A DNA stretch of 64,000 nt from a virus (Duplodnaviria > Caudoviricetes), in the IMG/VR virus record IMGVR_UViG_3300021400_000134; one strand, written 5' to 3'. Below, one piece after another: positions 11,987 through 64,000 of this stretch. A program made the translations under genes and the position numbers. Numbering within the stretch: the first letter of the stretch is position 1; each line of letters begins with the position of its first letter. Below the pieces are notes generated by a model, which was not told the DNA's origin, ran no database searches, and saw nothing but the letters and a program-made list of their open reading frames with translations.

Positions 11987-12216
11987 ATAAAGAATTGAAC
12001 TGCTTTTGGGTATTTTCCGCACGGCCGGGCAGCGTTTCAATCCGTGCTTTTGAGCTCTCCCGGGTTTACTATCCAGACTAGACTTTTCTGGTACTTGTAA
12101 TAGACTTATCCCATCTCTCAGCAATATCTGCATTTCTCACCGAGTTTCACATTGCAGTTCAGTATGGTCCCCGGAGCCGGACTCGAACCGGCACGGGCTC
12201 TCGCCCAGGGGATTTT

Positions 12217-12947
12217 CGTACCACACTATGTTACCATAGCCATTTGGACCAAAATGTTGTGGTCTGGACTATTTCTTTTCCATGTCTTACGATTTAGGAA
12301 GTTGGTGTATAGTCTCTACGCATTTATAATTTTCGGCTATTTTTACCTCTATAAGAATCTGTTAGAGCATGACAGTTAGGACATAACAACATATAATTTG
12401 ATAATTCGTTATGAGTTCTATCGCCATCTATGTGATGAAGTTCTAATGGTATTGGCTGTCCTAACCACTCCGTATTTCCGCAACACTCACACTTATGAGG
12501 TTTTAATTTTTCTTCAAGGATTTTTTTTCTAACTTTATTAGTCTGAATATCTTTGCTTGAAGCAAGATACTCTTCTAAAGTTGATTTATCTCTTTTTTTA
12601 GGCAAACCTTTTCCGCTTTGATTTCCACTATACTCAATATTCATTTTTTGTAAATAGCGGTTTAAAGTTTCTTGTTTGCATTTTAATTGTTCTGAAATAA
12701 ATGCTTTACTTTTATTTTCAGAAATCCATTGAAGAATTTGTTCTTTTTTTTCTAAAATATCTGTTCTCATATGTTTTCTCCTTACATATATTATAACAAA
12801 TATTTTTAGAAAATTGGTAAACTTTGTCCAAAATTTTTTGAACGTCTACCGAAAATTAACTTAGCTCGTCGTTATCCCAATAGGATTTTCGTCGAATTAG
12901 CCAACATTCACACAAGAAGTTTCCTATCTTGGTGCTCAAATTTGTTT
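12217..12947 (-). mobile_element. Group I intron in tRNA-Leu(UAA) anticodon
   Basis: 5' exon ends in U, intron ends in G; core-like GUAGAGACUA and AAAUAGUCC segments; insertion site matches the trnL(UAA) position. Confidence 0.82.
12324..12770 (-). CDS. Intron-encoded HNH homing endonuclease
   Basis: CECCG...LELHHIDGDRTHNELSNYMLLCPNCH. Confidence 0.88.
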   Translation of the reverse strand: MRTDILEKKEQILQWISENKSKAFISEQLKCKQETLNRYLQKMNIEYSGNQSGKGLPKKRDKSTLEEYLASSKDIQTNKVRKKILEEKLKPHKCECCGNTEWLGQPIPLELHHIDGDRTHNELSNYMLLCPNCHALTDSYRGKNSRKL

Positions 12948-15123: not shown

Positions 15124-16431
15124 TTAAGCACGATGGTCTACAACGCTAATCTTGCTTGGGTCATCACTGACGAAGCAAATATCGTCAAGGCCAGGAGCAG
15201 ATTCAAGGATAACGCCATCAGCGATTTCAGCACCGAATGGGCCATTAGCCAATCCAGGATAAGCAGCCTTGTCATCCATAACGATTGCGGCACATGGTAC
15301 TACAACGCGGCTGTCGCCAACCTTACCAACGAATCCGCCTTCAACACCGGAGTTATCAGCACAATGGATTTCACCAGCAGTCATATTTAACTGACCAGCA
15401 CGCATTAAGATACCGCAGCCCTTTTCGACATTGATAACGCCGCCTGTGACATTTAATTCACCACTGTTAGGCATATAGATACCGCATGCTGAATAACCAG
15501 CAGAAGTAATTCCGCAGTTTAATTCACCGCCGTTAAAGTTAATTACAACATGACCTTGGTCATTATCAGGTTTGACTGTACCATTACCCATGATAGCAGC
15601 ATTATCAATAGATGTGATTGTGCCACCATTCATTGTAAATGCGCCCTTAGTTGTAACTAAAGCACCGCATTCCTGAGCTGTAATTTCACCAGAATTGATA
15701 ATTAATTCTGAACCTTCACCAGTTGCCTGGAAAGCAACATCGCCACTGTTAGCAGTAGCATTTTCAATAGTTAATTTACCACCGCCAATAGCAGCACCAA
15801 TTCTACCAGTAGAAGTAACAGTACCGTTAGCAATCTTTAATTCACCACCATTAGCCAATAAAGCGTTTGTTGGTACGGATAATGTCTTACCATTTAGGTC
15901 AAGTTCAACACTCTTACCTGCTGGAACAGAAACTGGTTCTGTTAGAGACATATCGCTAGATAGTTTAACAATTCCACCTGCGGCCGCAGCTGCTACGAGT
16001 TCATCAGCGCTAGCGACCTTAGTAGTCATATTCACTCTTTCACAAATTGCTTCAACTTCTAATTCAGTTAAAGCCTTCATTTTTTCTAATTCATTAATAC
16101 GAGCGAGCATATCTAAAGCTCGTCCATCATCATTTTGTACATATTCAGCCAATTCTTTTAAAGTATCAAATGCTTCTGGAGCATTATCAACTACTTCAGC
16201 AATCTTTGCTTCAATGGCTGCATCAGTTTGTTCTTTATTTGCATCAACTTTTGCTTCTAATTCATCTAATTTAGAACTAACTGTTGTATCTGTTTTTGAA
16301 TCCACTTCTTGAATTAAAGAACGAAGTTCTTCAATATCTAGTTCATGGGCTGTTGCATCTTCAAAAGTGTCATTAATAAGTTCCCACAATTTAGCAAGAC
16401 CTTCCTGGTCTAAAAACTTCTTATCTGCCAT
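15124..16431 (-). CDS. Tail-spike/fibre-like protein: coiled-coil N-terminus plus probable right-handed beta-helix
   Basis: KKFLDQ motif, NAPEAFDTLKELA fibre motif, repeated xLxINGGxI beta-helix turns. Confidence 0.6.
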   Translation of the reverse strand: MADKKFLDQEGLAKLWELINDTFEDATAHELDIEELRSLIQEVDSKTDTTVSSKLDELEAKVDANKEQTDAAIEAKIAEVVDNAPEAFDTLKELAEYVQNDDGRALDMLARINELEKMKALTELEVEAICERVNMTTKVASADELVAAAAAGGIVKLSSDMSLTEPVSVPAGKSVELDLNGKTLSVPTNALLANGGELKIANGTVTSTGRIGAAIGGGKLTIENATANSGDVAFQATGEGSELIINSGEITAQECGALVTTKGAFTMNGGTITSIDNAAIMGNGTVKPDNDQGHVVINFNGGELNCGITSAGYSACGIYMPNSGELNVTGGVINVEKGCGILMRAGQLNMTAGEIHCADNSGVEGGFVGKVGDSRVVVPCAAIVMDDKAAYPGLANGPFGAEIADGVILESAPGLDDICFVSDDPSKISVVDHRA

Positions 16432-16796
16432 TATGCGTTCTCCTTTCTAGTGCATATATTTAAAATTTCTTGTTCTGAAATTGGTTCTGCCTGGTCAATC
16501 CACTCAAGATTATTTTGCCCCTTTATTGGAAATTGTCCTACTTGCGCAGACTCATAACCATATAGTGCCAATTTATCATTTTCATAAATTATAGTTTTGC
16601 CATCTTTACCAATTCTGAAGTCTTGAGTTAAATATGGTAAATCTCTCCAAGATTTAACTCCATCACCAATTTTTAATTTATTGGTGTCTTTTTCAAAGCC
16701 TGGTTCGCCATATAGTAAGACAGGATTTACTCTGTTCCAGGCTTCAGATGTTCCTCTTCTTAAGCGAAACTTCGTTTTTAAAACAATCTCTGCCAT
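16431..16796 (-). CDS. Mtd_N/hyaluronidase-N-like tail fibre protein
   Basis: LRRGTSEAW...NPVL..GEPGFEKDTNKLKIGDG...W..LPY. Confidence 0.7.
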   Translation of the reverse strand: MAEIVLKTKFRLRRGTSEAWNRVNPVLLYGEPGFEKDTNKLKIGDGVKSWRDLPYLTQDFRIGKDGKTIIYENDKLALYGYESAQVGQFPIKGQNNLEWIDQAEPISEQEILNICTRKENA

Positions 16797-37921: not shown

Positions 37922-38677
37922 ATGCTAGAAATAGGTAAATCATATACCAGTGCTGAGATAGCTAGAGAAGTTTTTAATGTTTCACCTAAAACCTTTTCTA
38001 ATCAACGTGTTAAGTATTTAGAAAAAATGTCAAAATATTATGAGTGAACTGAAGAGAGAAGAAAATTTACTATAACCGGTATTAAAGAAACATATGAAAG
38101 CAATTCAATAGGAAGGGTCTCTAAAGTTCAAATTCAACAGGAAATTAGAGAACCAGTACATGATGTTGTAAATCAAAATAGTTTGCAGACATATACAAGT
38201 ATTGCTAGAACAATGGTTAATACAAATAATCATTTTGTTCGTCGCCATCCTCAGCAAGAAAATACTATGATACGTTATATTCGGGCGGTAATGGAAACAG
38301 ATTATGCGGTTAAAGAATGGGTTTGGGGGGATATAAATCAATTACCAATTCAACCTTTAACCCAAGACCAGCAAGAATATTTAATGGTTTTAATGGGAAA
38401 GAAAGATGGTTTAAGTTTAGACCAGTTAAGTTTTATGATTAAAGCCATGGAAGAGTCTGGTTATATTACTAAAGAAGAAGCCAAGGACTTATTATATGAC
38501 ACTGCGACCAAAGATTATGAAGATGTAATGAATGGGTTTAAGCAGAAATATCATTTTAGACCAAGACTTGTGGCGGATTGGCAAGAAGGCATTGCGTTTG
38601 ATGCGGATATTGTTATTCCTTATGGATTAAAAAATAAAGAGAAATTACTGGAGTATAAGAAAGAAGAGGATAGATAA
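37922..38677 (+). CDS. Putative DNA-binding protein; one internal TGA (38045) read as Trp
   Basis: AGGAG RBS and ATG 37922 in frame with ORF 38183..38677; KYYE(W)TEE. Confidence 0.6.
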
Positions 38678-44693: not shown

Positions 44694-45149
44694 TCAAGCC
44701 TTTTTTGCACGATGTTTTGTGAGTTTTACGGTGTAGTCATTTGCGTGATAGGTGAAACTGATTTCCGCTTCGTTTTTAAGAGTCAGATTTTCAATTTCGC
44801 CATTCAGATTGAAGCCTTCAAGGACAACCCGAAGCCAATCAAACACAACCTTTTTGTCTTCGTCGACCTTACGCTCACGATTTACAGAACGCTTTTCAGG
44901 AGGCTTGCGGTCGGCTTTTGTCAGACCTCTTACCATCTTTTTCTGCTCAGCAGTCAGAGCAAACAATTCAGTATTTCCATGGTCGATTTCATCATCACAA
45001 TTGATAAGGTCGATTGCTTCCTCTCTTGAGCATTTCAGAGATTTCATGTGCTTCTGAATGAGTTCTTCAAGTTCTTTTTCTGTACGTCTTGCCATTGAGT
45101 ACACCTCTCTTTCTGTAATAATAATAGCATGGGGAAGGGGTTTTGTCAA
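44694..45149 (-). CDS. Basic hypothetical protein (paralogue of 41392..41784)
   Basis: Shared motifs; true start probably MARRTE. Confidence 0.7.
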   Translation of the reverse strand: MTKPLPHAIIITEREVYSMARRTEKELEELIQKHMKSLKCSREEAIDLINCDDEIDHGNTELFALTAEQKKMVRGLTKADRKPPEKRSVNRERKVDEDKKVVFDWLRVVLEGFNLNGEIENLTLKNEAEISFTYHANDYTVKLTKHRAKKA

Positions 45150-48443: not shown

Positions 48444-49115
48444 TCACCGAGCAAAGGCGAGTTTCCGCATTTTCTTGTGCTGTGCCATACATTTCACAGT
48501 AATTGCAATTTCAATCAGCACATCGTCAAGACCCTGATGTTCTTCTGTAAAATCGTTATCTCCTGTAATGTAGCGGTAGAGAATTTCTGCTGTCTTGCGG
48601 ACTTTGCCGTTTTTGCAGAGATAGCCATTTTCTTCACAGAATTTAATGTATGTTTTCTGCTTGCAGATGGTATCTTCTGCCATAACCATTGAGTCATACA
48701 GCGGGATGCCATACGGCAGAAAATAACGGTATTTTGATTTTGTAGTGTAGCGCATTGTAGTAGTTAATGACCGATAGTCAAAGCGGGCATTATGTGCAAT
48801 GATTGCCTTTACATTGTATTTATCACAAAGTGCTTTCACGATTTTTTTAGCGGTGAATACGCTAATCATTTTACGCTCTCCGCTTTTCAGTGCCTGCTCA
48901 TACTTTGGTAACTTGCTTGCATAGTAGGCGGATTTCATCAGTGCTTTTTCTTTAGCGTAAATATCATAGATAACATAACTTGCTTTTTCGTAAACCTTCC
49001 CCCGCTTGTCATGGATTGCAAGACCGAGGTCATACGCAAGCGGGCAATCCAAGCCATTTGCAGTTTCAGTGTCAATTGTCATGTAATAAGTAATACGCTT
49101 GTCAATCTTTGTCAT
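48444..49115 (-). CDS. DEDDh 3'-5' exonuclease (paralogue of 46091)
   Basis: IDTET, AHNARFD, EEHQGLDD. Confidence 0.82.
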   Translation of the reverse strand: MTKIDKRITYYMTIDTETANGLDCPLAYDLGLAIHDKRGKVYEKASYVIYDIYAKEKALMKSAYYASKLPKYEQALKSGERKMISVFTAKKIVKALCDKYNVKAIIAHNARFDYRSLTTTMRYTTKSKYRYFLPYGIPLYDSMVMAEDTICKQKTYIKFCEENGYLCKNGKVRKTAEILYRYITGDNDFTEEHQGLDDVLIEIAITVKCMAQHKKMRKLAFAR

Positions 49116-49325: not shown

Positions 49326-49733
49326 TCAACCCCACAGTTCAGCAGGATTGAGTGCTACACCTTTCCAAGAGTTGCGGATTGGTTCAGAATCATCGACAAG
49401 AACCGCATTCACAGAGTTTTTGAGGTTCTTATTGTGACCGTAGGCTCTGTAAATTCTCTTTGTGAGAGAAGGGAAGAACCTGTCGAGCCAAGCGTTTTTC
49501 TGTTCTTCAACATTCTTGCAGTATTCAGCAGTTGCGCCGAGCGGTGTCATGCTGAGGATGCGGATTTCATACTTGTCAGTGGGGAAGAAATTCAGAAGTT
49601 CTTTTTCTGTAATCATTGGCTTGCATTCAAGGAAGATTGTTTCATCGGAGGCTCTCAGTCTCGGAAGCCAATTTTCAATGCCGTACAGGTCAGCGATTGT
49701 TCCATCCATGTCAAGGTAAACTGTCTTTTTCAT
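49326..49733 (-). CDS. HAD-family 5'(3')-nucleotidase-like protein
   Basis: YLDMDGTIAD, LVDD motifs. Confidence 0.75.
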   Translation of the reverse strand: MKKTVYLDMDGTIADLYGIENWLPRLRASDETIFLECKPMITEKELLNFFPTDKYEIRILSMTPLGATAEYCKNVEEQKNAWLDRFFPSLTKRIYRAYGHNKNLKNSVNAVLVDDSEPIRNSWKGVALNPAELWG

Positions 49734-50905: not shown

Positions 50906-51346
50906 TCAAGCCCTTTTTAACTTGGCAATCTGCTTTGTGTTCATCAGCGTGGCGTTCTCAAGTTTAATCTGAACTTCCCGACCGTCAATCTGAATGTCAC
51001 CCTGTACCCAGAAGGGAACGTTATCCTTTTCCCATGTCTGACCGTAGTATTCAGTAACCAGCTTTTCGAAGATTTCACCCTTGTTGTACTTGTCAGCAAT
51101 CAGCATGTCAGCGGAGCCAAGACAGACAGGATGTTTCTTCATCAACTGCTTTTTCAGTTTGAGTTTTGGACGGAAGCGAAGATTTTCACCCTGATTTCTG
51201 CTTGCCTGTTCTACTGACAAGAAGCGTGGCATGATTTCCGCAACCTCTACCATGTAGAGTTTCTTTTCAAGTGTGAAGCCGAGGATGTAAGAATCAGCGG
51301 CTGAATTGTTTCTGTAGTGCTTAATCATTGTTCTCTTGGTTGTCAT
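50906..51346 (-). CDS. Hypothetical protein, possible PD-(D/E)XK fold
   Basis: GEIFE...GD......QIK. Confidence 0.5.
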   Translation of the reverse strand: MTTKRTMIKHYRNNSAADSYILGFTLEKKLYMVEVAEIMPRFLSVEQASRNQGENLRFRPKLKLKKQLMKKHPVCLGSADMLIADKYNKGEIFEKLVTEYYGQTWEKDNVPFWVQGDIQIDGREVQIKLENATLMNTKQIAKLKRA

Positions 51347-51831
51347 TTTGTTTCCCTCTTTTCTTTACACTCTTATTATAGCAGATTGCCGGATGAAGTC
51401 AACACCTTTTTTTAAACTTTTTTATTTTTTTGCTCTTGGTCGATGCATTACTGAAAAAATTTACATTTTGGGAGAAAAATTTTCATGCAATTTTCATCAT
51501 TTTTTGCTTGACAAAATCCGGGCCGGTGTAGTACAATAAATTTCGCGCCGGCTCGGTAGTGGGCGGCGCGCCAAAAGTCAATAAAAAAATGCCCTACTTA
51601 CCGCAGAGCATTTCCCACATCTCGCGGGTATCGCAGGAGTAGGAGACCCACCCTTCACCATCCTCGAGCACGTCGGCGTACTTGTAGCCACCGTCGACAT
51701 ACCAGATAGCGCGATTTTCGCAAGTAGCGAGAACATCGCAGTAAGTAGCAATCAGTTCCATGTGTTTCATTTGAACACCTCCTCTTTACAATTATAGTAT
51801 AACATGATTCTTTAGAATGTCAACACTTTTT

Positions 51832-54800
51832 TTAAAATTCTTCAAGCAAATAATACAGATTTTCTTCATTTATTTTTTTGGCAAATTGTGCGGTAAACCA
51901 AACATCGGTTTCTTCATCGTAATAAAAGTGAGGAATGTAGCAAATAGTATCTTTATCACCATACCATTCACAATTATTGAAAAAATCTTCAGAAATTGTG
52001 TAGAAGTCTTCGTTAATTTTTGTAATCATTTTTTACACCTCTCTTTACATTATTATTATATCCTACTGGTTATTATTTGTCAAGGGTTTCGGGATACTTT
52101 TTTACTTTTTCAAAGAATAATTCTCTCAGCAGATCGCAAATTTCTTCTTCGGTGACTCCTTTGGCGTGATACTTAGAAAAATAATAGCAAGTGAGTCCGC
52201 TCATGAGGATCTCATACTGTTTTGCTGTAAACTCCATTTTATCTGTTTCCTTTCACAATTTTATTTAATTCTAACAGGGTATTTTTATAGTATGCCATGC
52301 ACTTTTCATTAATACCCTTTTTAATTTCTTTTACAAGCAGTTTATCAATTAATTCATCGGCATTTTCTTTGTCTCTATTTTTCAGCAGATAATCAAGTTC
52401 TGTCATCTTTACCACCCCTTTCTGCAAGCATTTTTCTGTGCCTGCTTCTTTTTGTTTGGTACTACTTTATGTCCGAGTTTCCGCAGATTGCGGTTGAGTT
52501 CTTCATTGCGGAAATTGTAGAGTGTTTCTGTTCCATTAGCGTTTTTGTATTTCTTCATCTCTTGGTTCTCCTTACAATTATAGTATAACAGAAAAAAGGT
52601 ATTTGTCAATATCTTTTTTCTAATTTTTCTGTGTAAATGTCAGAATCAGGGAACCAATCAAGTCGTCTTGTAATGCTATCAATTTCATCTGCGGTGATGT
52701 GTCTAAAATCACGATCGCAATTTAACAGAAGGGCTTTATTTCCATCCGTACGCCGAAGTTCTTCTGAAATATTCTCAAGTACAGTGTTTACTGTAACGAA
52801 TGCTTCTTTTTCTTCTTCTGTTAATGAAAAGGTTATTTTCTTTGTTATTTCCATTTTATCACCTTTCTTACTCGTTGTCAAACATTAATTTAATACTGAA
52901 GAATGCAAGGCATCCGCTCAGCGCAAGAATGAAACTCATCATACTTTACCATACCTTTCTAACACATGGAGATTGAAACCTACAACCGCAACCGCAAGCA
53001 GAATAATTGGCAATGCTTCAATTGAGAAGTCATTAATTGAGACTAACATAATTGTTAATACCATTGTGATAATTTCAAGTGCCGTCTGAATGGCAGGTCT
53101 TAATGTTCTGTTCATTTTTTATACCTCTCTTTACATTATTATTATAACATAATTATTTTTATTGTCAACATTTAATTCTTAAGAATTGTGAGAAGTTCAT
53201 TCTTATTCACCTTAACCAAGCGGAACAGACCCCGCAAAGTCAAATTGTTAATAACCTGAGTTTCTCCAGTAGAGACATTAGTAATCTTTACTGTGTATAA
53301 CTGAATCTTTTTCTTTGCCATGTTCTGAACCTCCTTACATTATTATTATAACACAACGCCGGAAATTGTCAATAGTTTCGGGCAAAAAGTTTCAGGAAAT
53401 TTTAAAAAATTTTTAAAAAATTTCAATTTTCCTCTTGACTTCTGCGGCCCGGCATGCTATAATTTTTCGACCCGTTAGCGGTGACTAACCAAAGTCCGCA
53501 CTTGTGAAAGTTTAAACATTCACAAGTTTCTCCAAAAGAAAAGAGGTTCTCACCTCTCTCCGTACAGTGTCAGCACTGTTTCATCTCCGATGAAGTAGCA
53601 AGTTACTGCGTCGCCTTCTTCAAGGTCGTCTGCTTCAACCTCATACAATTCACCGTCAAGATTCACAATGTAATAATCATTGTATTCAGCGCCACCTTCA
53701 ATAGTTTTTTCAACTACATAACCGCTCTGTTTCTGCGCACCGAGAAGAGCAAGAACCGCAAGTATTACTTTAATCATTGTATCACCTCTCTTTACAATTC
53801 TATTATAACATCTCTACTGGATTTGTCAACACTTTTTTAAACTTTTTTATTTTTTTAGAGTTTGTGAATGTTTTATTTTTCACAAGTTCCCCAAGAAAAA
53901 AACAGGTTTTTAAGCCTGCCATTCAGCGAGAGCCTGACGGTAGAGTTCAGCGGACTCTTCCATCTCTTCTTCTTCGTACCATTCGATTTCACGGGTAAGC
54001 CATTCTTCGAAGCCGAAGTCTTCATCTTCTTCATCAAACGCTCCCTCGTATCCTTCCATCCAGTATTCCATCCAGATGCTGAGCATTTTTTCTTCATGTT
54101 CGTTGAGTTTTGCGAAGTCTTTCATTTTTCTTTCCTCTTTCTTTTTACACTTTTATTATAGCATACTATTCCGGTCTGTCAATACTTTTTAATTAATTTT
54201 TTAATTAAATTTATTCCCGCAAAAACTTTGTGAAAGTTCAAACTTTCACAAGTTGCCCCTAAAAAAAACTTAGCCAAGTTTGGCAAGTTCTTCGTTCAGA
54301 GCCTTGAGTTCTTTCTGAAGTTTTGCAACCTTAGCGAAGTTGTAGTGAAGGTCAGCCATTTCTTCATACCAGATTTCAGCCTTAACTTCATTGATTTTCT
54401 TTTCGAGTTCTGTTCTTGTCATTTTATTTACCTCTTTTCCTTATCTTCACCCTTATTATAGCCGGCGTTTGCGGTTTTGTCAAGGGGTTTTCTTAACTTT
54501 TTTTATTTTTTTCTCGGGGTTTTCTTTGTCCCTTCCCCTTCCTTCAATTATAGTATAACACACTTTCTGTCAATGTCAAGCCCTTTTAATAAAAAATTTT
54601 TTTTATTTTTTTATAAATTTTTCTTGACAAGTCGCAAGCTCTGTGGCATGCTGTGGCTGTGCTGGCAAGGCTCTGCATCGATGCAGTGCTAAGGTTTCAG
54701 GAAAAGGTGCTGGCTCTGACTTTGGTGCTGAAGCGCTTGCGAAAATGTGGTGAGTTCAGACAGTGCGAAAATTGCGTCGCCACACCCGCTGGCGGCGCAA

Positions 54801-55613
54801 GGCACGCTTACTAGTAGCACATTAGCCAAGACCGCAAACTCTTGCGCTGCATCGATGTGTTGTATTCTTTTAACTATTCTATCTACTCTTGGTTAGTCTA
54901 TACTAACTAACACTGTTAGTGTACACTTACTATACATGTGTAGTGTAGTGTAGTACACTGTTACTACTGTTGTTGTATAACATGCTGTGTGTGTACTACT
55001 TACTACTACTGTTACTGCTACTATTGTACTGTATGTAGTACACACATTGTCTGTCTACTGTTGTTGTGTGTATCTTATTATCTTACTACTAATGTATTAG
55101 TACTGTTGTGTTACCTCTTCATCATACTGTGTGAAGTCTCTGTATCCTGTCAGTACATACAACACATCACACATTGTCTGCGTGTTGTATCCATTGAGTG
55201 CTGTTGCTACCTGCATGGTCTGCTCCTGCACACCTACTACATCTACCAAGTAGTTATACATGTCTTCTGTTGTGTTATACATCATTGTCTCTCCTTGTTT
55301 ACACTATTATTATAACATGTTGTTGTGTTGTTGTCAACAGTTGTTGTTGTGTTGTTGTGTTACTCTCTTGGTTGGCTCTGGCTGGCTGGCCAAGCCTCTA
55401 GGCCTAGGCCCTGTAGCCGTAGAGCACTCTGTAGTCGTGTGTAGGCACCCAATAGCCATCAAATACATAAGCGATGTTCTCATTCTGTCTGAGTTCTCTA
55501 GCCTTAGCTACAGCCTCTTCTCTCAGAGTGTAGTGCTCTTCTACCTCTTTTACCACTGTGCCGAATGCTACAGTGTTTACTGTTGTGTTGTCTACTGTTC
55601 TATGTCTTAACAT
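51832..55613 (-). CDS. Series of tiny early-type genes (51832, 52239, 52409, 52606, 53550, 53910, 55097, 55404 and others <60 aa)
   Basis: Most preceded by consensus TTGACA-N17-TATAAT and strong RBS. Confidence 0.5.
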
Positions 55614-56217
55614 CTTGTGTACCTCTCTTATCCTCTTTACACTTGTATTATAGCAGTACATGCCGGTTTTGTCAAGAGGTTTTGCGAAAGTTTTTTATTA
55701 TTTTTTTGCAGTGCATCGATGTATCGGGATTTTTTTGTAGGTAGAACTCACGCGAGTTTTTGCTTTGCATCGATGTGAAGCGTTTTTTTCAACAAAACAA
55801 GGCTCGCAGCGTGCGTCAGCGAGCCTGCGATTTTGGGGGAGGGCGGGGGCCCTCCTATAGTGTCTCTATCGCTCAGATTAGCAAGGACCCACGTCTACCT
55901 TGTGTAATTTTTATCATTTGAAAACCCCGGGGGTGGGTTTTGGGAAAAAATTTTTTTTAGAAGAGCAAAACGTTTCGCTCTCCACCACCCTCCCACTCAA
56001 AGTTACCCCCATCACCATTACGGGATTTTATAAAAAAAAGTGTCTTTCGACACTTTTCGACTATATTAGTAAACAAACTCCTAAAGCGAACATAGCTCCA
56101 TATATTACCATTAAGGTAGCCTTGACCCACTTACGATACCGCAACCCAAATCCGTACCGATAGACATGAGCTACTCTAAACAAGCTCACTACCACCATGA
56201 TGATACCAAGCATCTCA

Positions 56218-56972: not shown

Positions 56973-57076
56973 CTTTAATCACTTCCTTATAATTATTATA
57001 TCATAAATTTTAAATATTTGACAAGTGTAGAAAAATTCTGGTATAATTGTTGTATAAGCTTTGGAGGAAAGAATTA

Positions 57077-58129
57077 ATGACTAAACTCGATTACAGTTTA
57101 AATTCTCCAGAAGAACGTTTAGAAGTCGTCAAAAAGATATTAGAGGAAAATCCCAATCCTGATTCCTACTATCTTGAAATCCTAGCCGACTATCTAGTAT
57201 TCTGCATGGAGAAAGAGGAGAAAAAGGAGAAAAAAATTCTTACCGAAAATCGCTTGGCTACAGTAAATAAAAGAGAAACCTCTTATGAGGGCCTGGTATC
57301 TCAGTTTGAAAATGGAGAAGATGGCGTATACAATATAACAAATAATGATAAACATGTAATTTTTCAACCAAAGATAGCAATAACAGCAAAAGATAGAAAA
57401 GATATTCCTGAATTAAGTCAAACTGACGAGGCAATCGCAGCCTGGGATTACCGGGTGCGCCATTCCGAAGGTAGAGATGCGTTTATAGCAAAGAAGGCTC
57501 TTATCGAAACTCGTAAAGACCAATATGTTATAAAGCAAGCATTCAAGCCTCCAGTACAAGCCATGCATTTAGTGCATTCAGAACATCATATTGAATTGCC
57601 GGAAAGCGCGGAATTTGATGATGAAGGTTATCCAATTCCACATGGAGTATCTTTAATGAATCCTGTTATTTGCTCTACTATATTATGTAATTATGTAAAA
57701 TTAAAAGAGAACAGTTGAGGTGATTTTTTTGGAGATACTTGATATTTAATGGAAGAATTTGATAAAGTTTCTATGCGCGCGTTGGCCCCTTATCCACTCT
57801 ATTATCGCATTGTAGAATGCAAAATAGATGGGCTACAAAATGCGGAAATACGAGATATTATCCAAGAGGAGTTTGGTATTAAACATAGTCTTGAATATAT
57901 CTCATCATTATGGCGTAAAAAAATTCCTAATCTCATCGCATCTGCGGCCGAGGATGAATATTTAGATTATTATTATCTAAATGAGGAAAAAGGTAAGTAT
58001 AAAAGATGTTCTCGTTGCGGACAAATTAAATTGGCTCATAATAAATATTTTAGCAAGAATAAAACCAGTAAAGATGGTTGGTATTCTATTTGCAAGTGCT
58101 GCCGCAATAAAAAGGTCAAAAAACAATAA
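57077..58129 (+). CDS. Putative DNA-binding protein with HTH-like region and C-terminal Zn finger; TGA at 57716 and 57740 read through
   Basis: ORFs 57047 and 57749 fuse in frame: ENS(W)GDFFGDT(W)YLMEEF. Confidence 0.7.
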
Positions 58130-58171
58130 TTTGCGGCGACAGCAAACTAAAATATATAAGGAGGTAATTTA

Positions 58172-59422
58172 ATGGATAGAGAAATTAGTAAAAAAGATTT
58201 AATCTATTGCGAAAAATGCCATAAAACATTAAAGCGTGGGGAATTTTATCAATCTAATAATTTAGAAAAATATCCAGACGGTGGCACTATTCCGATATGT
58301 AAGAAATGTTTAACGATGCATGTAGATAATTGAAATCCGGAAACATTTACCCCCATATTGAAAGAAGTAGATGTACCATACATTCCAGAAGAATGGAATA
58401 AACTTCTAGAAAGTTATGGGCAAGACCGAAGAAAAGTAACTGGTATGACTATTTTAGGTAGATACCTATCTAAAATGAAGTTAAAGCAGTTTAAAGATTA
58501 TCGTTGAAAAGACACTGATTTTTTACAAGATTTAGCTGAGAAACGTTTGCGCGAAACCATGGAACGTCAAGGTAAAGATATCCAAGAAATTACTTTGGCG
58601 ATTGAGGAGCAAAAAGCAGTTATTCCTGAAAAGAGTTTTGAGGATATAGTGTTTGCGCCGGCTGATGAACCGGTCGGTTTTACCTCGATGGAGCTTAACG
58701 AACCAGCGAAAACCGCAGATGACCTAGGCTTAACTGATGAAGATATAACTTACCTTAAACTTAAATGGGGTAAGAGTTATAAGCCAGAAGAATGGGTTCA
58801 ACTAGAACAATATTATAATGACTTTATGGAGTCTTATGATATTCAGACTGCAGGTCATAAAGATACTTTAAAAAAACTTGCGAAAACATCTCTAAAATTA
58901 GACCAACTAATTGACTTAGGAGATGTTGATGGCGCACAAAAAATGCAGAAAATGTATGACAGTTTAATGAAGAGTGGTAAGTTTACTGCTGCTCAGAATA
59001 AAGCCGAGAATGGCGAAATTGTTGACTCAATTTCTGAATTAGTTATGATGTGCGAAAAAGATGGATTTATTCCAAGATATTATGTAGATTCACCAAAAGA
59101 TAAGGTTGATAGAGTATTGCAGGATTTACAGGGATATACAAAATCACTTATCACAGAAGAAACAAACATTGGAAATCTTATTGAAAATGCGGTCAAGCAG
59201 ATTGAAGAAGACAAGCGTCGTGAAGCAGAAATGGATGCGGATGCGGCAAGTGATGAAGATATCCTTGAAGATGCACTTTTCAATGATGATATAAATTATA
59301 TTGCGGATGGTGAATTTCAGGAATTTGGCGAATTTGAAGACGAACTAGAGAAAGCCGATGAAGATTTCATGCAAAATCTTACTGATGAACAACTTTTAAA
59401 AGAGTTGAAACGAGGTAAGTAG
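58172..59422 (+). CDS. Zn-finger protein upstream of terminase (small-subunit candidate); TGA at 58331 and 58505 read through
   Basis: AAGGAGG RBS, CEKC/CKKC, HVDN(W)NPE, DYR(W)KDT in frame with ORF 58547. Confidence 0.7.
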
Positions 59423-59423
59423 T

Positions 59424-61196
59424 ATGGCACTTCAAGATTTATTAGAGCTTTCGCAAGACCGAAAGAAGATTGGCTTATCTGAAGAACGTATTCAAGTGAT
59501 TAAGCCATACTTAACACAGTATATTGCCTTTTGGAGAGAATACCCTGATATGTTTGTGGACTTTCTCCAAACTGGTAGAGATGGAGAGATACCTGAAAAT
59601 GGTTTAAAGTTTTTCTTCTATCAAAGAGTATTCTTGCGTGCGGCAATGCGTTATAAATATGTTTACATGGTATTTCCTCGTGCGTATTCAAAATCATTCT
59701 TATCAGTGCTCGTGTTAATGTGCCGATGTGTTTTATATCCAAGAGCGAAATTATTCGTTACTTCTGGTGGTAAAGAACAGGCAGCAGGTATTGTTAAAGA
59801 AAAGGTTAATGAAATATGTACTCTTGTTCCAGCATTTGACAGAGAATTAGACCGACGTCCTGGTAAAACAAGAGAAGGAAAAGACTATGTATGTTATATG
59901 TTCAAGAATGGTTCATTCTTTGATAACATTGCGGCAAGTGAGAAATCAAGAGGTAAACGTCGTCATGGTGGATTAGTAGAAGAGTGTGTCGGTGTTGATG
60001 GTACTATTCTATCAGAAGTTATTATCCCAACCATGAACGTTTCAAGATTATGTATGGATGGTACAATGCATCCAGAAGAAACCTTAAATAAATCTCAAAT
60101 TTTTGTAACCACTGCTGGTTATAAAAATACATTCGCCTATGATAAATTGATACAGTTCCTTGTTTGGATGGTTACCGAACCTGAGAAGGCTATTATCATG
60201 GGTGGCACCTTTCGCATTCCAGTATTAACTGGATTATTAGATAAAAACTTTATTCAAGACCTTAAACGAGATGGCACATTCAATGAAGCCTCATTTGAAC
60301 GTGAATATGAGTCAAGATGAAGTGGTACTGTTGCGGATGCTTTCTTTAATGGAGAAGCATTTGATAGAAATAGGTCTTTACAAAAACCAGAGTATGAACA
60401 TTCTGGTCGTTCGACTTTACAGAGTTATTATATATTATCAATGGACGTTGCGAGAAAAAATACTGGTAAAGATGGCTGCGATAGCGTCATTACCATTTTT
60501 AAAGTAACGCCGCAAAACTATGGAGAAGTATCAGTAAAATCTCTTGTTAATCTATACACTTTAACTAATATGCATTTTGAAGACCAGGCAATTTGAGCAA
60601 AACGTCTATTCTATAAATATAAAGCAAGACGTATTGTAATTGATGCCAACGGTCTTGGTATTGGTTTAGTAGATTATATGGTTAAACGTCAAACAGACCC
60701 AGTAACTGGGGACGAATATCCAGATTTTGGAGTTGAGAATGATGAAGATGGATATTATAAGAGATTTAAGACTGGGGAAACTGAACAAGAGGCCATGTAT
60801 TTAATTAAAGCAAATGCGCCAATTAATACGGAAGCGCACTCCAATGTTCAGACACAACTTACTTCTGGAAAGTTAAAATTCTTAATAGATGAACGTATTG
60901 CAAAAAATAAGTTATTAGGAACTCAAAAAGGTAAACAAATGACACCAGAAGAAAGGGCAGAATACTTAAAACCATACACCTTAACTTCTATATTAAAAGA
61001 GGAGATGTTAAATCTTCGTGAAGAAAATGAAGGTATTAACATTATCTTAAAGCAAGCTAATCGTGGAATAAGAAAAGATAAATTTTCAGCATTTGAATAT
61101 GGATTATATTATATCAAACAGGTAGAAGACAGTAAGAAGAGAAAACATAAGAAATTTAATGCTGCGGAATGACGATTTAGTTCACACATTGGATAA
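59424..61196 (+). CDS. terL: Terminase large subunit (590 aa with TGA at 60318, 60594, 61170 read through)
   Basis: FYQ, PRAYSKS Walker A, RGKRRHG, VEE Walker B, VTTAG; nuclease SMDVAR, VIDANGLG, KDKFSA. Confidence 0.88.
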
Positions 61197-61207
61197 GGAG
61201 AATAATT

Positions 61208-61567
61208 ATGAGAGCAAGTAGAGGAGAAATTAAAATAGAAGAGATATTGACAGAAGCAGGACTAAATTTCAAAATGGAGTTATCTTTTGAAGGATTAAAT
61301 AGTTCAAATGGTAAGCCATTGCGTTTTGACTTTGCGGTTTTTGACGATGATGGCAACCTTGATTTTTTAATTGAGTATCAAGGTAGACAGCATTATGAAC
61401 CTAGTAGTAAGTTTGGTGGAAAGAAAGGTTTTTATCAACAGCAATTTAATGATGCGAAAAAACGTAGATTTTGCCAACTACATGATATAAAGTTAATAGA
61501 AATCCCATATACCGATGAAAATCTTATTGATTACGATTATATAATAAATAAAGCATACGGAAAATAA
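61208..61567 (+). CDS. PD-(D/E)XK endonuclease-like protein
   Basis: LRFDFAV...LIEYQGRQHY...D..K...C. Confidence 0.7.
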   Translation: MRASRGEIKIEEILTEAGLNFKMELSFEGLNSSNGKPLRFDFAVFDDDGNLDFLIEYQGRQHYEPSSKFGGKKGFYQQQFNDAKKRRFCQLHDIKLIEIPYTDENLIDYDYIINKAYGK

Positions 61568-61579
61568 GGAGGTGGAGCT

Positions 61580-63172
61580 TTGGATAAACAAGAAAGACAA
61601 GAAGCCATTAGAGAAAAAGGCTTCGATATGAATGGCGCCGCTGACTATGGGAAAATAAAAGTAGGTATTAAAACTCTTGAAGATGCGATTATTGACCTAG
61701 GCTTTTATAAAAAAGTCGAAGGAAGACATTGCTTCGATAAAAGAATGATAATGCGTGCGATTATTGATAAAGATTATCGTGCTATTAAGATTATCTCTGA
61801 TTATTTTTATAGAACAAATGGTATATATCAAAGAATTGTAAACTATTATGCAACTATGTATCGTTGAGACTGGTACATTACTCCAAATATTTATGATGAA
61901 AAAATTTTAGAAAGTGATAAAGAGTGTTTAAAAATAACAAATGAGTTTTTTAAAGCACTGGATTATTTAGATAACACCCATATTAAAAAGTTATGCGGAG
62001 ATATCGCTTTAAAGGTTATTAAGTACGGTGTTTGTTATGGCTATATTATAGAAGGCGATAAAGGTATTTTATTCCAAGAGTTGCCATCAGAATATTGCCG
62101 CTGCCGCTACTATATTAATAATCTACCTGCCATAGAATTTAATATGGCATATTTTGATGAAAAGTTTAGGGATATTAATTACCGTATGCGTGTATTAAAG
62201 ATGTTCCCTAAAGATTTCCAAAAAGGCTATCTTTTATATAAAGAAAGAAAGCTTCAGCCTGATTTCCAAGGAGATATTGGATGTTGGTATTTATTAGACC
62301 CAGGATATGCGGTTAAATTTAGTTTAGCTGGTGCTGGTGATATGCCATTGTTTATTAATGTTATTCCATATCTACTTGACCTTGACGCAGCTCAAGACCT
62401 CGACCGCCGCAAGCAGATGCAGGATTTATTAAAGATTATCGTACAGAAGCTTCCAATAGATAAGAATGGTGATTTAATCTTTGATGTTGATGAAGCTAGA
62501 GATATTCATAATAATGCGGTTGCGATGTTACAACATTCTGTTGGAACAGATATTATTACAACATTTGCGGATATTGATTCTATTGATTTGTCTGACGCAA
62601 GAAATGTTGATAATGATGATTTGGAAAGAGTTGAACGTACAGTTTATAATGCAGCTGGTGTGCCGAAGAATTTATTTAATTCAGATGGTAATATTGCTTT
62701 AACTAGTTCAATTTTGCAGGATGAAGGCGTTATGAGAGACCTTAAGTTGCAATTCGAAATTTTATTTGATACAATAATTCAGAGAAGAGTCAAGAGTAAA
62801 AAGAAATTTAATTTTAGATATTATATTTTAGATACTACACAATATAATTATAAAGAATTATCAAAGATGTATAAAGAACAAATGCAGATTGGTTATGGTA
62901 AGATGTTTGCGCAGATTGCTCTTGGACATTCACAAAATTCTATTATGAGTACAGCGTACTTTGAAAATTCTGTATTAGGATTAAGTGAAATCATGGTACC
63001 ACCTATGATGTCATCTACTATTGGTAGTGAAGATATTCAAAACTTGGGCAAAAAGAATAAATCTGGTAATGGCAATCAGCAAACTAATACAGAAGGAGAA
63101 ACTGGAAGACCTCAAAAGGAAACTACAGAATTATCCGACAAGACAATTGCAAATAGAGAAAGTATGAAGTAG
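61580..63172 (+). CDS. Portal protein (530 aa with TGA at 61865 read through)
   Basis: ORFs 61580 and 62081 fuse in frame; size, position after terminase, C-terminal GRP motif. Confidence 0.72.
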
Positions 63173-63183
63173 GAGGAGTTAAA

Positions 63184-64000
63184 ATGCATGAAAGTATAGC
63201 AATAGATTCTCCTATTGAGATTGTTGATGTTTCGCCCACTTTAAATCCTCTTATTTCAAAATGTCAGATTAAGGTTTGCTATGTTGGCGATGAACCAAAC
63301 CGCAATGGTAGTGTTATTACAAAAGCTGTTGCGACAGAAATGGCAAAGAGCTTACCTGGATGCCCTATTGTTGGGTATTACAATGAAAATACAGAAGATT
63401 TTGAGGCTCATAATCAAAGCATCGATATCCGCAATGGAGAATGGAATTTTAAAGATACGACTCAGCCTTATGGATTCGTTGATTTAAATGCAAAAGTATG
63501 GTTTCAAAAATTCTCAGACGAGGGAGTTGAGCATGAATATCTAATGACTGAAGGATATTTATGAACAGAACAATTCCCTGAAGCAAAAAGAGTTATTTCC
63601 AAAGGCAATAACCAATCTATGGAATTATATGAACCTGCTTTAAAGGGATTTTGGTCAGAAAGTGATAATGAAGGATATAGTTTCTTTATTATAAATGAAG
63701 CAATAATCTCTAAACTTTGTATTCTTGGAGAGGATGTAGAGCCTTGCTTCGAGGGTTCTCAAATTACAAGAGTACAGTTCTCGTTTGAACCAAGTTTCCA
63801 GCAGAAGATTTTAAATATGATGGAGCAGGTTAAAGAGATGAAAGAAGAAGGAGGGACAGATTCTGTGGAAGAAGTAAAAGCACCTGAAATGGAAGAAGAA
63901 GTTTTAGATAACGAAGAAGAAAAACCAGAAGAAGAAGCTCCTGCAGAACCTGAAGTTGAAGAAACTCCAGAAGAAGAAGCAGAAGAAGCTCCAGCTGAAG
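63184..64000 (+). CDS. Prohead protease/scaffold (partial; TGA at 63562 read through)
   Basis: NRNGS.I, PIVG, GYL(W)TEQ, NQSMEL, LCILGEDVEPCF, acidic scaffold tail. Confidence 0.72.

What the first reader, a model, noticed from the sequence alone, without database searches (positions are those of the whole stretch)
57077..64000. TGA is a sense codon (Trp) in the head-morphogenesis genes
Seen: nine in-frame TGAs (57716, 57740, 58331, 58505, 60318, 60594, 61170, 61865, 63562) interrupt otherwise continuous frames. No TAA or TAG ever interrupts them, and the genes end in TAA/TAG. Read-through restores a full ATPase+nuclease terminase, a 530-aa portal and a protease. The contexts fit Trp (EYESR-W-SG, GYL-W-T, HVDN-W), and TGG is also used. 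Established: stop-codon-recoded phages exist, with recoded codons concentrated in late genes.
Basis: partly seen in the sequence, partly recalled or inferred. Interest (0 to 1): 0.8.

Follow-up and report, generated by a model that had tools for sequence, protein, structure and literature searches.

The report
Phage reads TGA as tryptophan

Summary
No TAA or TAG interrupts the six frames, and the five complete genes end in TAA or TAG. Reading TGA as a residue gives a sigma-like protein, a YonG-like protein, a 590-aa large terminase (T4 gp17 fold), a 530-aa portal and a protein with a prohead-protease-like fold.

At the nine sites, 87 related loci have TGG in 57% of cells and TGA in 14%; most of the rest are Tyr or Phe. 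The terminase W299 and protease W127 columns are invariant Trp. Two independent assemblies about 98% identical keep the TGAs, and one has TGG at a single site. This excludes assembly error, Gly, Cys and Sec.

Outside the block, ORFs of 100 aa or more hold 130 TGG and only two homologue-supported TGAs. At least four early genes end in TGA where homologues mostly stop. This argues against a host that itself reads TGA as Trp.

The window has no tRNA(UCA). Three near-complete relatives have one, split by a group I intron in two. Earlier notes of this scan report the same tRNA in this genome. No RF1 or TrpRS was found.

The lineage mixes TGA-type, TAG-type and standard-code phages, as Borges et al. 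describe for their clades. The scan had already noted this recoding in overlapping windows. Verdict: correct, and a new member of a known kind.

The parts
57018..57047 (+). Consensus host-type (sigma-A/sigma-70) promoter, TTGACA-18-TGnTATAAT, in front of the block
   Evidence: It matches 12 of 12 positions with an extended -10. A match of at least 11 of 12 sits at about the same place in most of about 65 relatives. Function is inferred.
57077..58129 (+). Sigma-like regulator gene (350 aa from the ATG) with in-frame TGA at 57716 and 57740
   Evidence: It matches phrog_5767 'sigma factor' at E 1.9e-47 and has no Pfam match. A GGAGG lies before the ATG. Relatives have mostly TGG, TGA or Tyr at both sites.
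58172..59422 (+). 416-aa protein of unknown function in the SPbeta YonG position, with TGA at 58331 and 58505
   Evidence: It matches phrog_3314 at E 8.8e-60. The column at aa 112 is TGG in 67 and TGA in 8 of 77 relatives.
59424..61196 (+). Large terminase (590 aa) with TGA at 60318, 60594 and 61170
   Evidence: It aligns end to end with annotated TerL of Enterococcus and Geobacillus phages. The model matches T4 gp17 (3cpe, E 6e-12) and also ATPase-only and nuclease-only entries. W299 is invariant.
61208..61567 (+). Small homing-endonuclease-like gene between terminase and portal, with no TGA
   Evidence: It matches phrog_9084 'homing endonuclease' at E 1.3e-27.
61580..63172 (+). Portal protein (530 aa) with TGA at 61865
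   Evidence: It matches phrog_2739 'portal protein' at E 7e-79. The column is mostly Tyr, Phe, TGA or TGG in relatives.
63184..64000 (+). Prohead-protease-like N-domain with an acidic scaffold-like tail; TGA at 63562; the gene runs off the window
   Evidence: The model (mean pLDDT 63) best matches T4 gp21 (5jbl, Z 8.6, rmsd 3.6, 127 aligned), then VZV protease at Z 6.5. W127, H76 and S145 are invariant.
20222..20860 (-). Peptidase_C39_2-like gene outside the block with a sense TGA at 20285-20287
   Evidence: The G003 homologue has TGG at that column, and similarity continues for 20 aa beyond it.
37922..38677 (+). Gene of unknown function outside the block with a conserved in-frame TGA at 38045-38047
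   Evidence: Protein-level similarity to G001 runs across the TGA, and G001 has TGA at the same column.
48444..49115 (-). Early-region gene that ends in TGA (48444-48446), used as a stop
   Evidence: Four homologues end within two codons of that position in TAA or TAG, L040 a few codons later, and one G001 paralogue about 20 residues later.
44694..45149 (-). Early-region gene that ends in TGA (44694-44696), followed one codon later by TAA
   Evidence: The G001 homologue has TAA at the same column.
7357..7428 (-). Phage tRNA-Trp(CCA), the only Trp tRNA in the window; no UCA anticodon is present
   Evidence: ARAGORN finds it with and without the intron option. Rfam scores it at 30.5 bits, just over threshold.

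Best explanation
This is part of a roughly 176-kb virulent-type siphophage of gut or rumen Bacillota. It decodes UGA as tryptophan in its packaging, head and other late genes, while the host and many early genes use UGA as a stop.

Shown:
- TGA stands at Trp positions in the block.
- TGA is nearly absent as a sense codon elsewhere in the window, and there it also serves as a terminator.

Shown in close relatives, and reported for this genome by earlier notes of this scan:
- The decoder is a phage-encoded tRNA with anticodon UCA and Trp-type features (A1-U72 in two of the three copies, G73 in all). In some genomes a group I intron after U34 interrupts the gene.

Inferred:
- Host TrpRS charges this tRNA, since no phage TrpRS or RF1 was found in four relatives.
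- The tRNA competes with host RF2.
- Full-length late proteins, beginning with the sigma-like lead gene behind a host-type consensus promoter, can be made only once the tRNA has accumulated. The recoding would then act as a translational lock on late functions.
For: Nine TGAs and no TAA or TAG lie in 2,287 in-frame codons. At the nine sites 57% of 688 cells are TGG and 14% are TGA. Columns that are TGG in the window carry TGA in some relatives. Terminase W299 and protease W127 are invariant. Trp is enriched about 40-fold in TGA columns, and Gly and Cys are not enriched. Assemblies L008 and L009 (98.2% and 97.6% nt identity, from other samples) keep 8 of 9 and 9 of 9 TGAs. TGA makes up 9 of 23 Trp-type codons in the TGA-bearing genes of the block, against 2 of 132 outside it (Fisher p 3e-7). 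TGA stands at or within about two codons of where most homologues stop in TAA or TAG in early genes. tRNA(UCA) is present in G001 and G003, overlapping Rfam group I matches, and uninterrupted in G002. G001 is collinear with the window, and its TGAs are dense in the plus-strand 10-100 kb and sparse in the minus-strand part. A conserved consensus promoter stands before the lead gene, which carries a recoded stop in 20 of 20 TGA-type and 42 of 42 TAG-type relatives. The sister lineages read TAG at Gln columns, and no bacterial host is known to do that (established knowledge). MAG bins that hold relatives are mostly Lachnospiraceae, Oscillospiraceae and other Bacillota.
Against: There is no tRNA(UCA) in the 64-kb window. 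The rest of this genome was not available to me, so its own decoder rests on relatives and on earlier unchecked notes. Timing is not shown: there are no expression data. Two genes outside the block also use TGA as Trp, so 'late genes only' is approximate. The host is unknown, and assignment of phage contigs to MAG bins is weak evidence. There is no peptide evidence. The relatives counted are not independent samples.
Confidence: 0.85

Rival explanations
1. TGA is read as Trp from the start of infection. Either the suppressor tRNA is expressed early, or the recoding has no timing role and simply drifted into genes that tolerate it. There is then no temporal lock.
For: Two TGA-bearing genes lie outside the late block. 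The block's lead gene has a host-type consensus promoter, which suggests early transcription. There are no expression data.
Against: TGA is strongly partitioned, 9 of 23 against 2 of 132 Trp-type codons. Early genes use TGA at or near homologues' stop positions. G001 shows the same partition.
Confidence: 0.2
2. The host itself uses genetic code 4, as Mycoplasmatales do, and the phage merely follows the host's code.
For: TGA=Trp is the host code in some Bacillota-derived lineages (established knowledge). The host of this phage is unknown.
Against: Outside the block there are 130 TGG and almost no sense TGA. At least four early genes end in TGA where most homologues stop in TAA or TAG at or within about two codons, and the sequence after the TGA is not conserved. 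Sister phages at 60-70% protein identity recode TAG instead, or nothing. Relatives carry their own tRNA(UCA). The MAG bins belong mostly to standard-code families.
Confidence: 0.05
3. TGA encodes another residue: Gly as in code 25, Cys, or selenocysteine.
For: Code 25 phages exist (bioRxiv 10.1101/2021.08.26.457843). The anticodon UCA is also that of tRNA-Sec.
Against: TGA columns hold W 41%, Y 21% and F 12%; Gly and Cys are not among the top residues. Two columns are invariant Trp. The relatives' tRNA(UCA) has a 7-bp acceptor stem and a 4-bp D stem, not the Sec type.
Confidence: 0.02
4. The genes are broken (pseudogenes, a decaying prophage), or the TGAs are sequencing or assembly errors.
For: Under table 11 every gene is fragmented.
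Against: All nine interruptions are TGA. They are kept in independent assemblies and in relatives down to 75% identity, with TGA and TGG exchanged at the same columns. The proteins align full length to functional phage homologues.
Confidence: 0.01

Closest known systems
Stop-codon-recoded gut phages of Borges et al. (bioRxiv 10.1101/2021.08.26.457843): the large TGA-recoded Agate, Jade and Sapphire clades
   Same: They have TGA aligned with Trp in the terminase, with recoded codons concentrated in structural and lysis genes. Early and replication genes are largely in standard code, the predicted hosts are standard-code Firmicutes, and suppressor tRNAs are present. One clade can hold code 4, code 15 and code 11 members. 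They come from cattle and other animal guts, with genomes of roughly 127-210 kb.
   Different: Whether this lineage is one of those named clades could not be tested, because their sequences are not on hand. Jade phages carry RF1 and TrpRS, and none was found in four relatives here. TGA is still a common terminator of early-region ORFs here (about 7 of 52 after two corrections), against 2.7% of genes in their standard-code Agate relative. In some genomes here an intron hides the decoder tRNA.
phAss-1 / proposed Phassvirus (OQ749652; PMC10607447)
   Same: It is a distant relative (terminase 45% identical, same gene order) from human gut, with a predicted Clostridia host. Its late genes, including TerL, portal and tape measure, are interrupted by a recoded stop, and it carries suppressor tRNAs but no dedicated synthetase.
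   Different: phAss-1 recodes TAG (code 15), not TGA.
Standard-code relatives: Enterococcus phages H1, EF1 and VRE9, Geobacillus virus E3, and the SPbeta-type YonG/YonF module
   Same: They share the sigma-like gene, YonG-like gene, TerL, small ORF, portal and protease-scaffold order. The same consensus promoter stands before the sigma-like gene in Enterococcus phage H1.
   Different: They have no in-frame stops, and they have TGG where this phage has TGA at the conserved columns.

Membership tests
Code-4 (TGA to Trp) recoded phage on a standard-code host | Conserved genes are interrupted only by TGA and end in TAA or TAG | tested here: met
   There are 9 TGA, 0 TAA and 0 TAG in 2,287 codons, and the stops are TAA or TAG.
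Code-4 (TGA to Trp) recoded phage on a standard-code host | TGA columns align with Trp in homologues | tested here: met
   57% of cells are TGG and 14% TGA at the nine sites. Two columns are invariant Trp. Trp is enriched about 40-fold.
Code-4 (TGA to Trp) recoded phage on a standard-code host | Recoded codons are concentrated in structural and late genes, and the other genes are largely free of them | tested here: met
   TGA makes up 9 of 23 against 2 of 132 Trp-type codons. G001 has the same partition. There are two exceptions.
Code-4 (TGA to Trp) recoded phage on a standard-code host | A phage-encoded tRNA with anticodon UCA | tested here: inconclusive
   None is in the window. It is present in 3 of 3 near-complete relatives examined. 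Earlier notes report it for this genome 67.7 kb beyond the window, and I could not read that DNA.
Code-4 (TGA to Trp) recoded phage on a standard-code host | The host uses the standard code | not testable with these tools
   The evidence is indirect only: TGA as a terminator in early genes and Bacillota MAG bins.
Code-4 (TGA to Trp) recoded phage on a standard-code host | Peptides with Trp at TGA sites | not testable with these tools
   This needs proteomics.
Code-25 (TGA to Gly) phages of Absconditabacteria or Gracilibacteria | TGA columns align with Gly, and most genes carry TGA | tested here: not met
   Gly is not enriched. Most early genes lack a sense TGA.
Phage of a code-4 host | TGA is never a terminator and is used as Trp throughout the genome | tested here: not met
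   TGA stands at or near homologues' TAA or TAG stop positions in at least four early genes. Outside the block there are 130 TGG and 2 TGA.
Large terminase (T4 gp17-type) | An N-terminal ATPase fold plus a C-terminal RNase-H-like nuclease fold | tested here: met
   Foldseek gives 3cpe at E 6e-12, the ATPase-only 2o0h at 1e-5 and the nuclease-only 5m1f at 4e-5. The model has mean pLDDT 65, with residues 171-319 poorly modelled.
Prohead protease (T4 gp21 / herpesvirus assemblin fold) | The protease fold with conserved His and Ser | tested here: inconclusive
   The best VIA match is 5jbl at Z 8.6, then 1vzv at 6.5 and 8j3s at 4.9, on a model with pLDDT 63. Foldseek found nothing. H76 and S145 are invariant.
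Agate, Jade or Sapphire clade (Borges et al.) | The terminase falls inside the named clade | not testable with these tools

The most novel reading that the evidence does not exclude
The genetic-code switch is the timer of a regulatory cascade. A strong host-type promoter, conserved across the lineage, would transcribe the sigma-like lead gene of the packaging and head block from the start of infection. In every recoded relative, whether TGA-type or TAG-type, that gene carries recoded stops. Full-length regulator, and with it late expression, would therefore appear only when the phage's suppressor tRNA has been made (and spliced, where its gene carries the intron). Early genes that end in the recoded codon would at the same moment gain C-terminal extensions.
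Probability: 0.2. Interest if true: 0.6.

Novelty: new member of a known kind. Interest (0 to 1): 0.33.

Why it matters
Annotation of this phage under table 11 shreds its terminase, portal and other late genes. Two PHROG families of 'unknown function' (phrog_15503 and phrog_24618) match the N- and C-terminal halves of this terminase separately. This is a practical warning for phage annotation.

The lineage is large: more than 6,400 relatives of one of its proteins are in public metagenomes. It switches among TGA-type, TAG-type and standard coding at least eight times on a terminase-portal tree. That makes it a good natural system for asking how and why phages change their code. The phenomenon itself, its bias to late genes and the suppressor-tRNA mechanism are already published.

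Tried and rejected
- **No genome.** No whole genome is held for the window, so its own tRNA(UCA) could not be read.
- **RF1 and TrpRS.** Searches for the RF-1 domain (PF00472) and TrpRS (PF00579) found nothing in four relatives, three of them at least 93% complete and one 79%.
- **Family and sequence searches.** Pfam and NCBIfam give nothing for the five late proteins. PDB sequence search gives nothing for the terminase or the protease-like protein.
- **Foldseek.** It found nothing for the protease-like model; only the wide VIA search did.
- **Sigma identity.** It rests on a PHROG label alone. None of the 120 best-listed homologues carries a Pfam domain.
- **Supported sense TGAs across the window.** A scan against G001-G003 was too noisy, because off-frame ORFs over conserved genes also align. 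I kept only cases inspected by eye.
- **Anticodon switch.** I compared the TAG-type tRNA(CUA) of G009 with the TGA-type tRNA(UCA) of G002 to see whether one locus had switched anticodon. Both have long variable arms but different acceptor stems, so this is not settled.
- **Introns in TAG-type and standard-code relatives.** ARAGORN called no intron-split tRNA at the group I introns of the further TAG-type, standard-code and one distant TGA-type relatives searched.
- **Literature.** Two full-text searches found no paper on intron-split suppressor tRNAs in recoded phages. This is not proof that none exists.
Full report
**Observation**

The nine TGAs are at the stated coordinates. Under table 11 the plus strand of 57-64 kb is a row of fragments in single frames. 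Under table 4 it becomes six tightly packed genes:
- 57077-58129, 350 aa from the ATG with a GGAGG before it
- 58172-59422, 416 aa
- 59424-61196, 590 aa
- 61208-61567, 119 aa, no TGA
- 61580-63172, 530 aa
- 63184 to the window end

The five complete genes end in TAA or TAG, and each start is preceded by a Shine-Dalgarno-like GGAGG or AGGAG. The frames hold 2,287 codons with 9 TGA and no TAA or TAG. The off-frames of the same genes hold 196 TAA, 158 TGA and 81 TAG. Chance gives about 1e-62 for the open frames and about 1e-4 for all nine interruptions being TGA.

**What the genes are**

- PHROGs name the first gene 'sigma factor' (phrog_5767, E 1.9e-47). I could not confirm that label: there is no Pfam or NCBIfam match, and none of the 120 best-listed homologues has a Pfam domain.
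- The second gene is an unknown family in the SPbeta YonG position.
- The third gene aligns over 98% of its length with annotated large terminases of Enterococcus and Geobacillus phages. Its model matches full-length T4 gp17 and also ATPase-only and nuclease-only terminase entries.
- The fifth gene is a portal (phrog_2739, E 7e-79).
- The N-domain of the last gene gives a moderate model. Its best structural matches are the T4 gp21 prohead protease (Z 8.6) and herpesvirus proteases, and it has an invariant His and Ser. 'Protease' is therefore plausible but not firm.

**Is TGA tryptophan?**

Seven GenBank phages already show Trp at terminase position 299 (7 of 7) and protease position 127 (5 of 5), and aromatic residues at several other sites. 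With 80 IMG/VR relatives added, the nine columns hold TGG in 395 and TGA in 96 of 688 cells; most of the rest are Tyr or Phe. Columns that are TGG in the window are TGA in some relatives.

Across all 45 columns with a TGA anywhere, Trp is 41% of the other residues against a background of 1%. Gly and Cys are not enriched. W299 and W127 are invariant in alignments of 23 and 24 sequences.

Contigs L008 and L009 come from other samples and are 98.2% and 97.6% identical to the window. They keep TGA at 8 of 9 and 9 of 9 sites. The one difference is TGG at terminase position 299. This rules out assembly error and pseudogenes, and it argues against Gly, Cys and Sec.

**Where TGA is and is not a sense codon**

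Outside the block, 52 ORFs of 100 aa or more hold 130 TGG. I found two homologue-supported sense TGAs there:
- in a Peptidase_C39_2-like gene at 20222-20860 (TGG in G003, with similarity continuing beyond it)
- in an unknown gene at 37922-38677 (TGA also in G001, with protein similarity across it)

The contrast is 9 of 23 against 2 of 132 Trp-type codons, p 3e-7.

TGA also works as a terminator:
- 48444-49115 ends in TGA; four homologues end within two codons of that position in TAA or TAG, L040 a few codons later, and one G001 paralogue runs about 20 residues further.
- 44694-45149 ends in TGA where the G001 homologue has TAA.
- 49326-49733 has a TGA end that is kept in relatives, and the sequence after it is not conserved.
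- 50906-51346 likewise. Its TAG-type relatives L072 and L073 end in TAG at the same column.

The close relative G001 (176 kb, collinear with the window as a circular permutation) shows the same split. TGA is as common as TGG, or more so, across most of the plus-strand 10-100 kb and rare in the minus-strand remainder.

**Mechanism**

The window has 30 tRNAs and a tmRNA, including one tRNA-Trp(CCA), but no UCA anticodon, with or without the intron option. No whole genome is held for the window.

- In G001 and G003, ARAGORN with the intron option finds a tRNA(UCA) whose insert coincides with an Rfam group I intron match. The scores are 22.7 and 34.9 bits, below the gathering score of 50.
- In G003 the spliced product is a 74-nt cloverleaf with A1-U72, G73 and CCA, and the insert follows U34.
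- G002 has an uninterrupted 95-nt tRNA(UCA).
- Earlier notes of this scan report the same split tRNA 67.7 kb beyond this window. Their follow-ups judged the intron a passenger, because sister phages lack it. My three relatives agree with that.
- No RF1 or TrpRS was found in four relatives. Charging by host TrpRS and competition with RF2 are inferences.

**A promoter detail**

A 12-of-12 consensus TTGACA-18-TGnTATAAT lies at 57018-57047, just before the sigma-like gene. A match of at least 11 of 12 sits at about the same place in most of about 65 relatives, including the standard-code Enterococcus phage H1. The lead gene carries at least one recoded stop in all 20 TGA-type and all 42 TAG-type relatives; these are not independent samples. 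This fits, but does not show, a model in which transcription can start early while full-length product waits for the suppressor.

**The lineage**

In the five late genes I count:
- about 23 relatives that are TGA-type
- about 44 that are TAG-type, with 10-48 in-frame TAGs aligned mostly with Gln
- about 10 in standard code

On a quick terminase-plus-portal tree the window sits in a clade of 20 rows, 19 TGA-type and one with only two in-frame TGAs (SH-aLRT 94). This clade is nested among TAG-type groups, and at least 8 changes of state are needed. MAG bins that hold such contigs are mostly ruminant-gut Bacillota.

**Comparison with what is known**

Borges et al. (bioRxiv 10.1101/2021.08.26.457843) describe all of the following:
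- TGA aligned with Trp in terminases
- a bias to structural and lysis genes
- standard-code early genes
- suppressor tRNAs, detectable in only 35% of code-4 genomes
- clades that mix codes 4, 15 and 11
- cattle-gut phages of 127-210 kb

phAss-1 is a distant TAG-type relative (PMC10607447). This finding is therefore a correct reading of a further member of a described kind. The scan had already noted the same recoding in overlapping windows of this genome.

Noticed in passing
window 56995-57047: Two back-to-back near-perfect host-type promoters sit in the 105-bp gap between the minus-strand genes and the late block: plus strand 12 of 12, minus strand 11 of 12. The plus-strand one is conserved across the lineage.
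   Followed up: partly
window 50906-51346 (-); L072, L073: This early gene ends in TGA in TGA-type phages and in TAG at the same column in TAG-type relatives. Each phage type thus terminates it with its own recoded codon, so its product might be extended after the code switch.
   Followed up: partly
window 59424-61196: phrog_15503 (245 positions) and phrog_24618 (230 positions), both 'unknown function', match the N- and C-terminal halves of this terminase separately. They may have been built from terminase fragments of recoded phages annotated under table 11.
   Followed up: no
window 7357-7428 (-): The tRNA-Trp(CCA) has only a 3-bp D stem and barely passes Rfam (30.5 against 29 bits). G001 has a tRNA-Met(CAT) at the matching place and no tRNA-Trp(CCA) at all.
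   Followed up: partly
G002 58412-58506 (-); L128 1328-1421 (G009): The uninterrupted suppressor tRNAs, UCA in a TGA-type phage and CUA in a TAG-type phage, are 95 and 94 nt long with long variable arms. That is unusual for Trp or Gln tRNAs. In G009 a group I intron match lies about 80 nt downstream.
   Followed up: partly
G013 (record of L085), G011, G010: Group I introns are very common in some relatives: 13 Rfam matches in one 156-kb genome, several clustered at 66-77 kb.
   Followed up: no
window 51400-56200: This stretch has few long ORFs under either code and strongly negative AT skew. Its content was not examined.
   Followed up: no
window 12165-12475 (-): ARAGORN with the intron option calls a tRNA-Ser(AGA) with a 216-nt insert here. 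It may be a false call, or it may relate to the tRNA-like RNAs noted earlier in this region.
   Followed up: no
window 15263-16447: G002 is about 96-97% identical at protein level here, though only about 84-90% in the late block. This suggests mosaic exchange between relatives.
   Followed up: no
L026 (IMGVR_UViG_3300032167_000002): A 402-kb contig carries the same late module as contigs of about 170 kb. It may be a concatemer or a misassembly.
   Followed up: no
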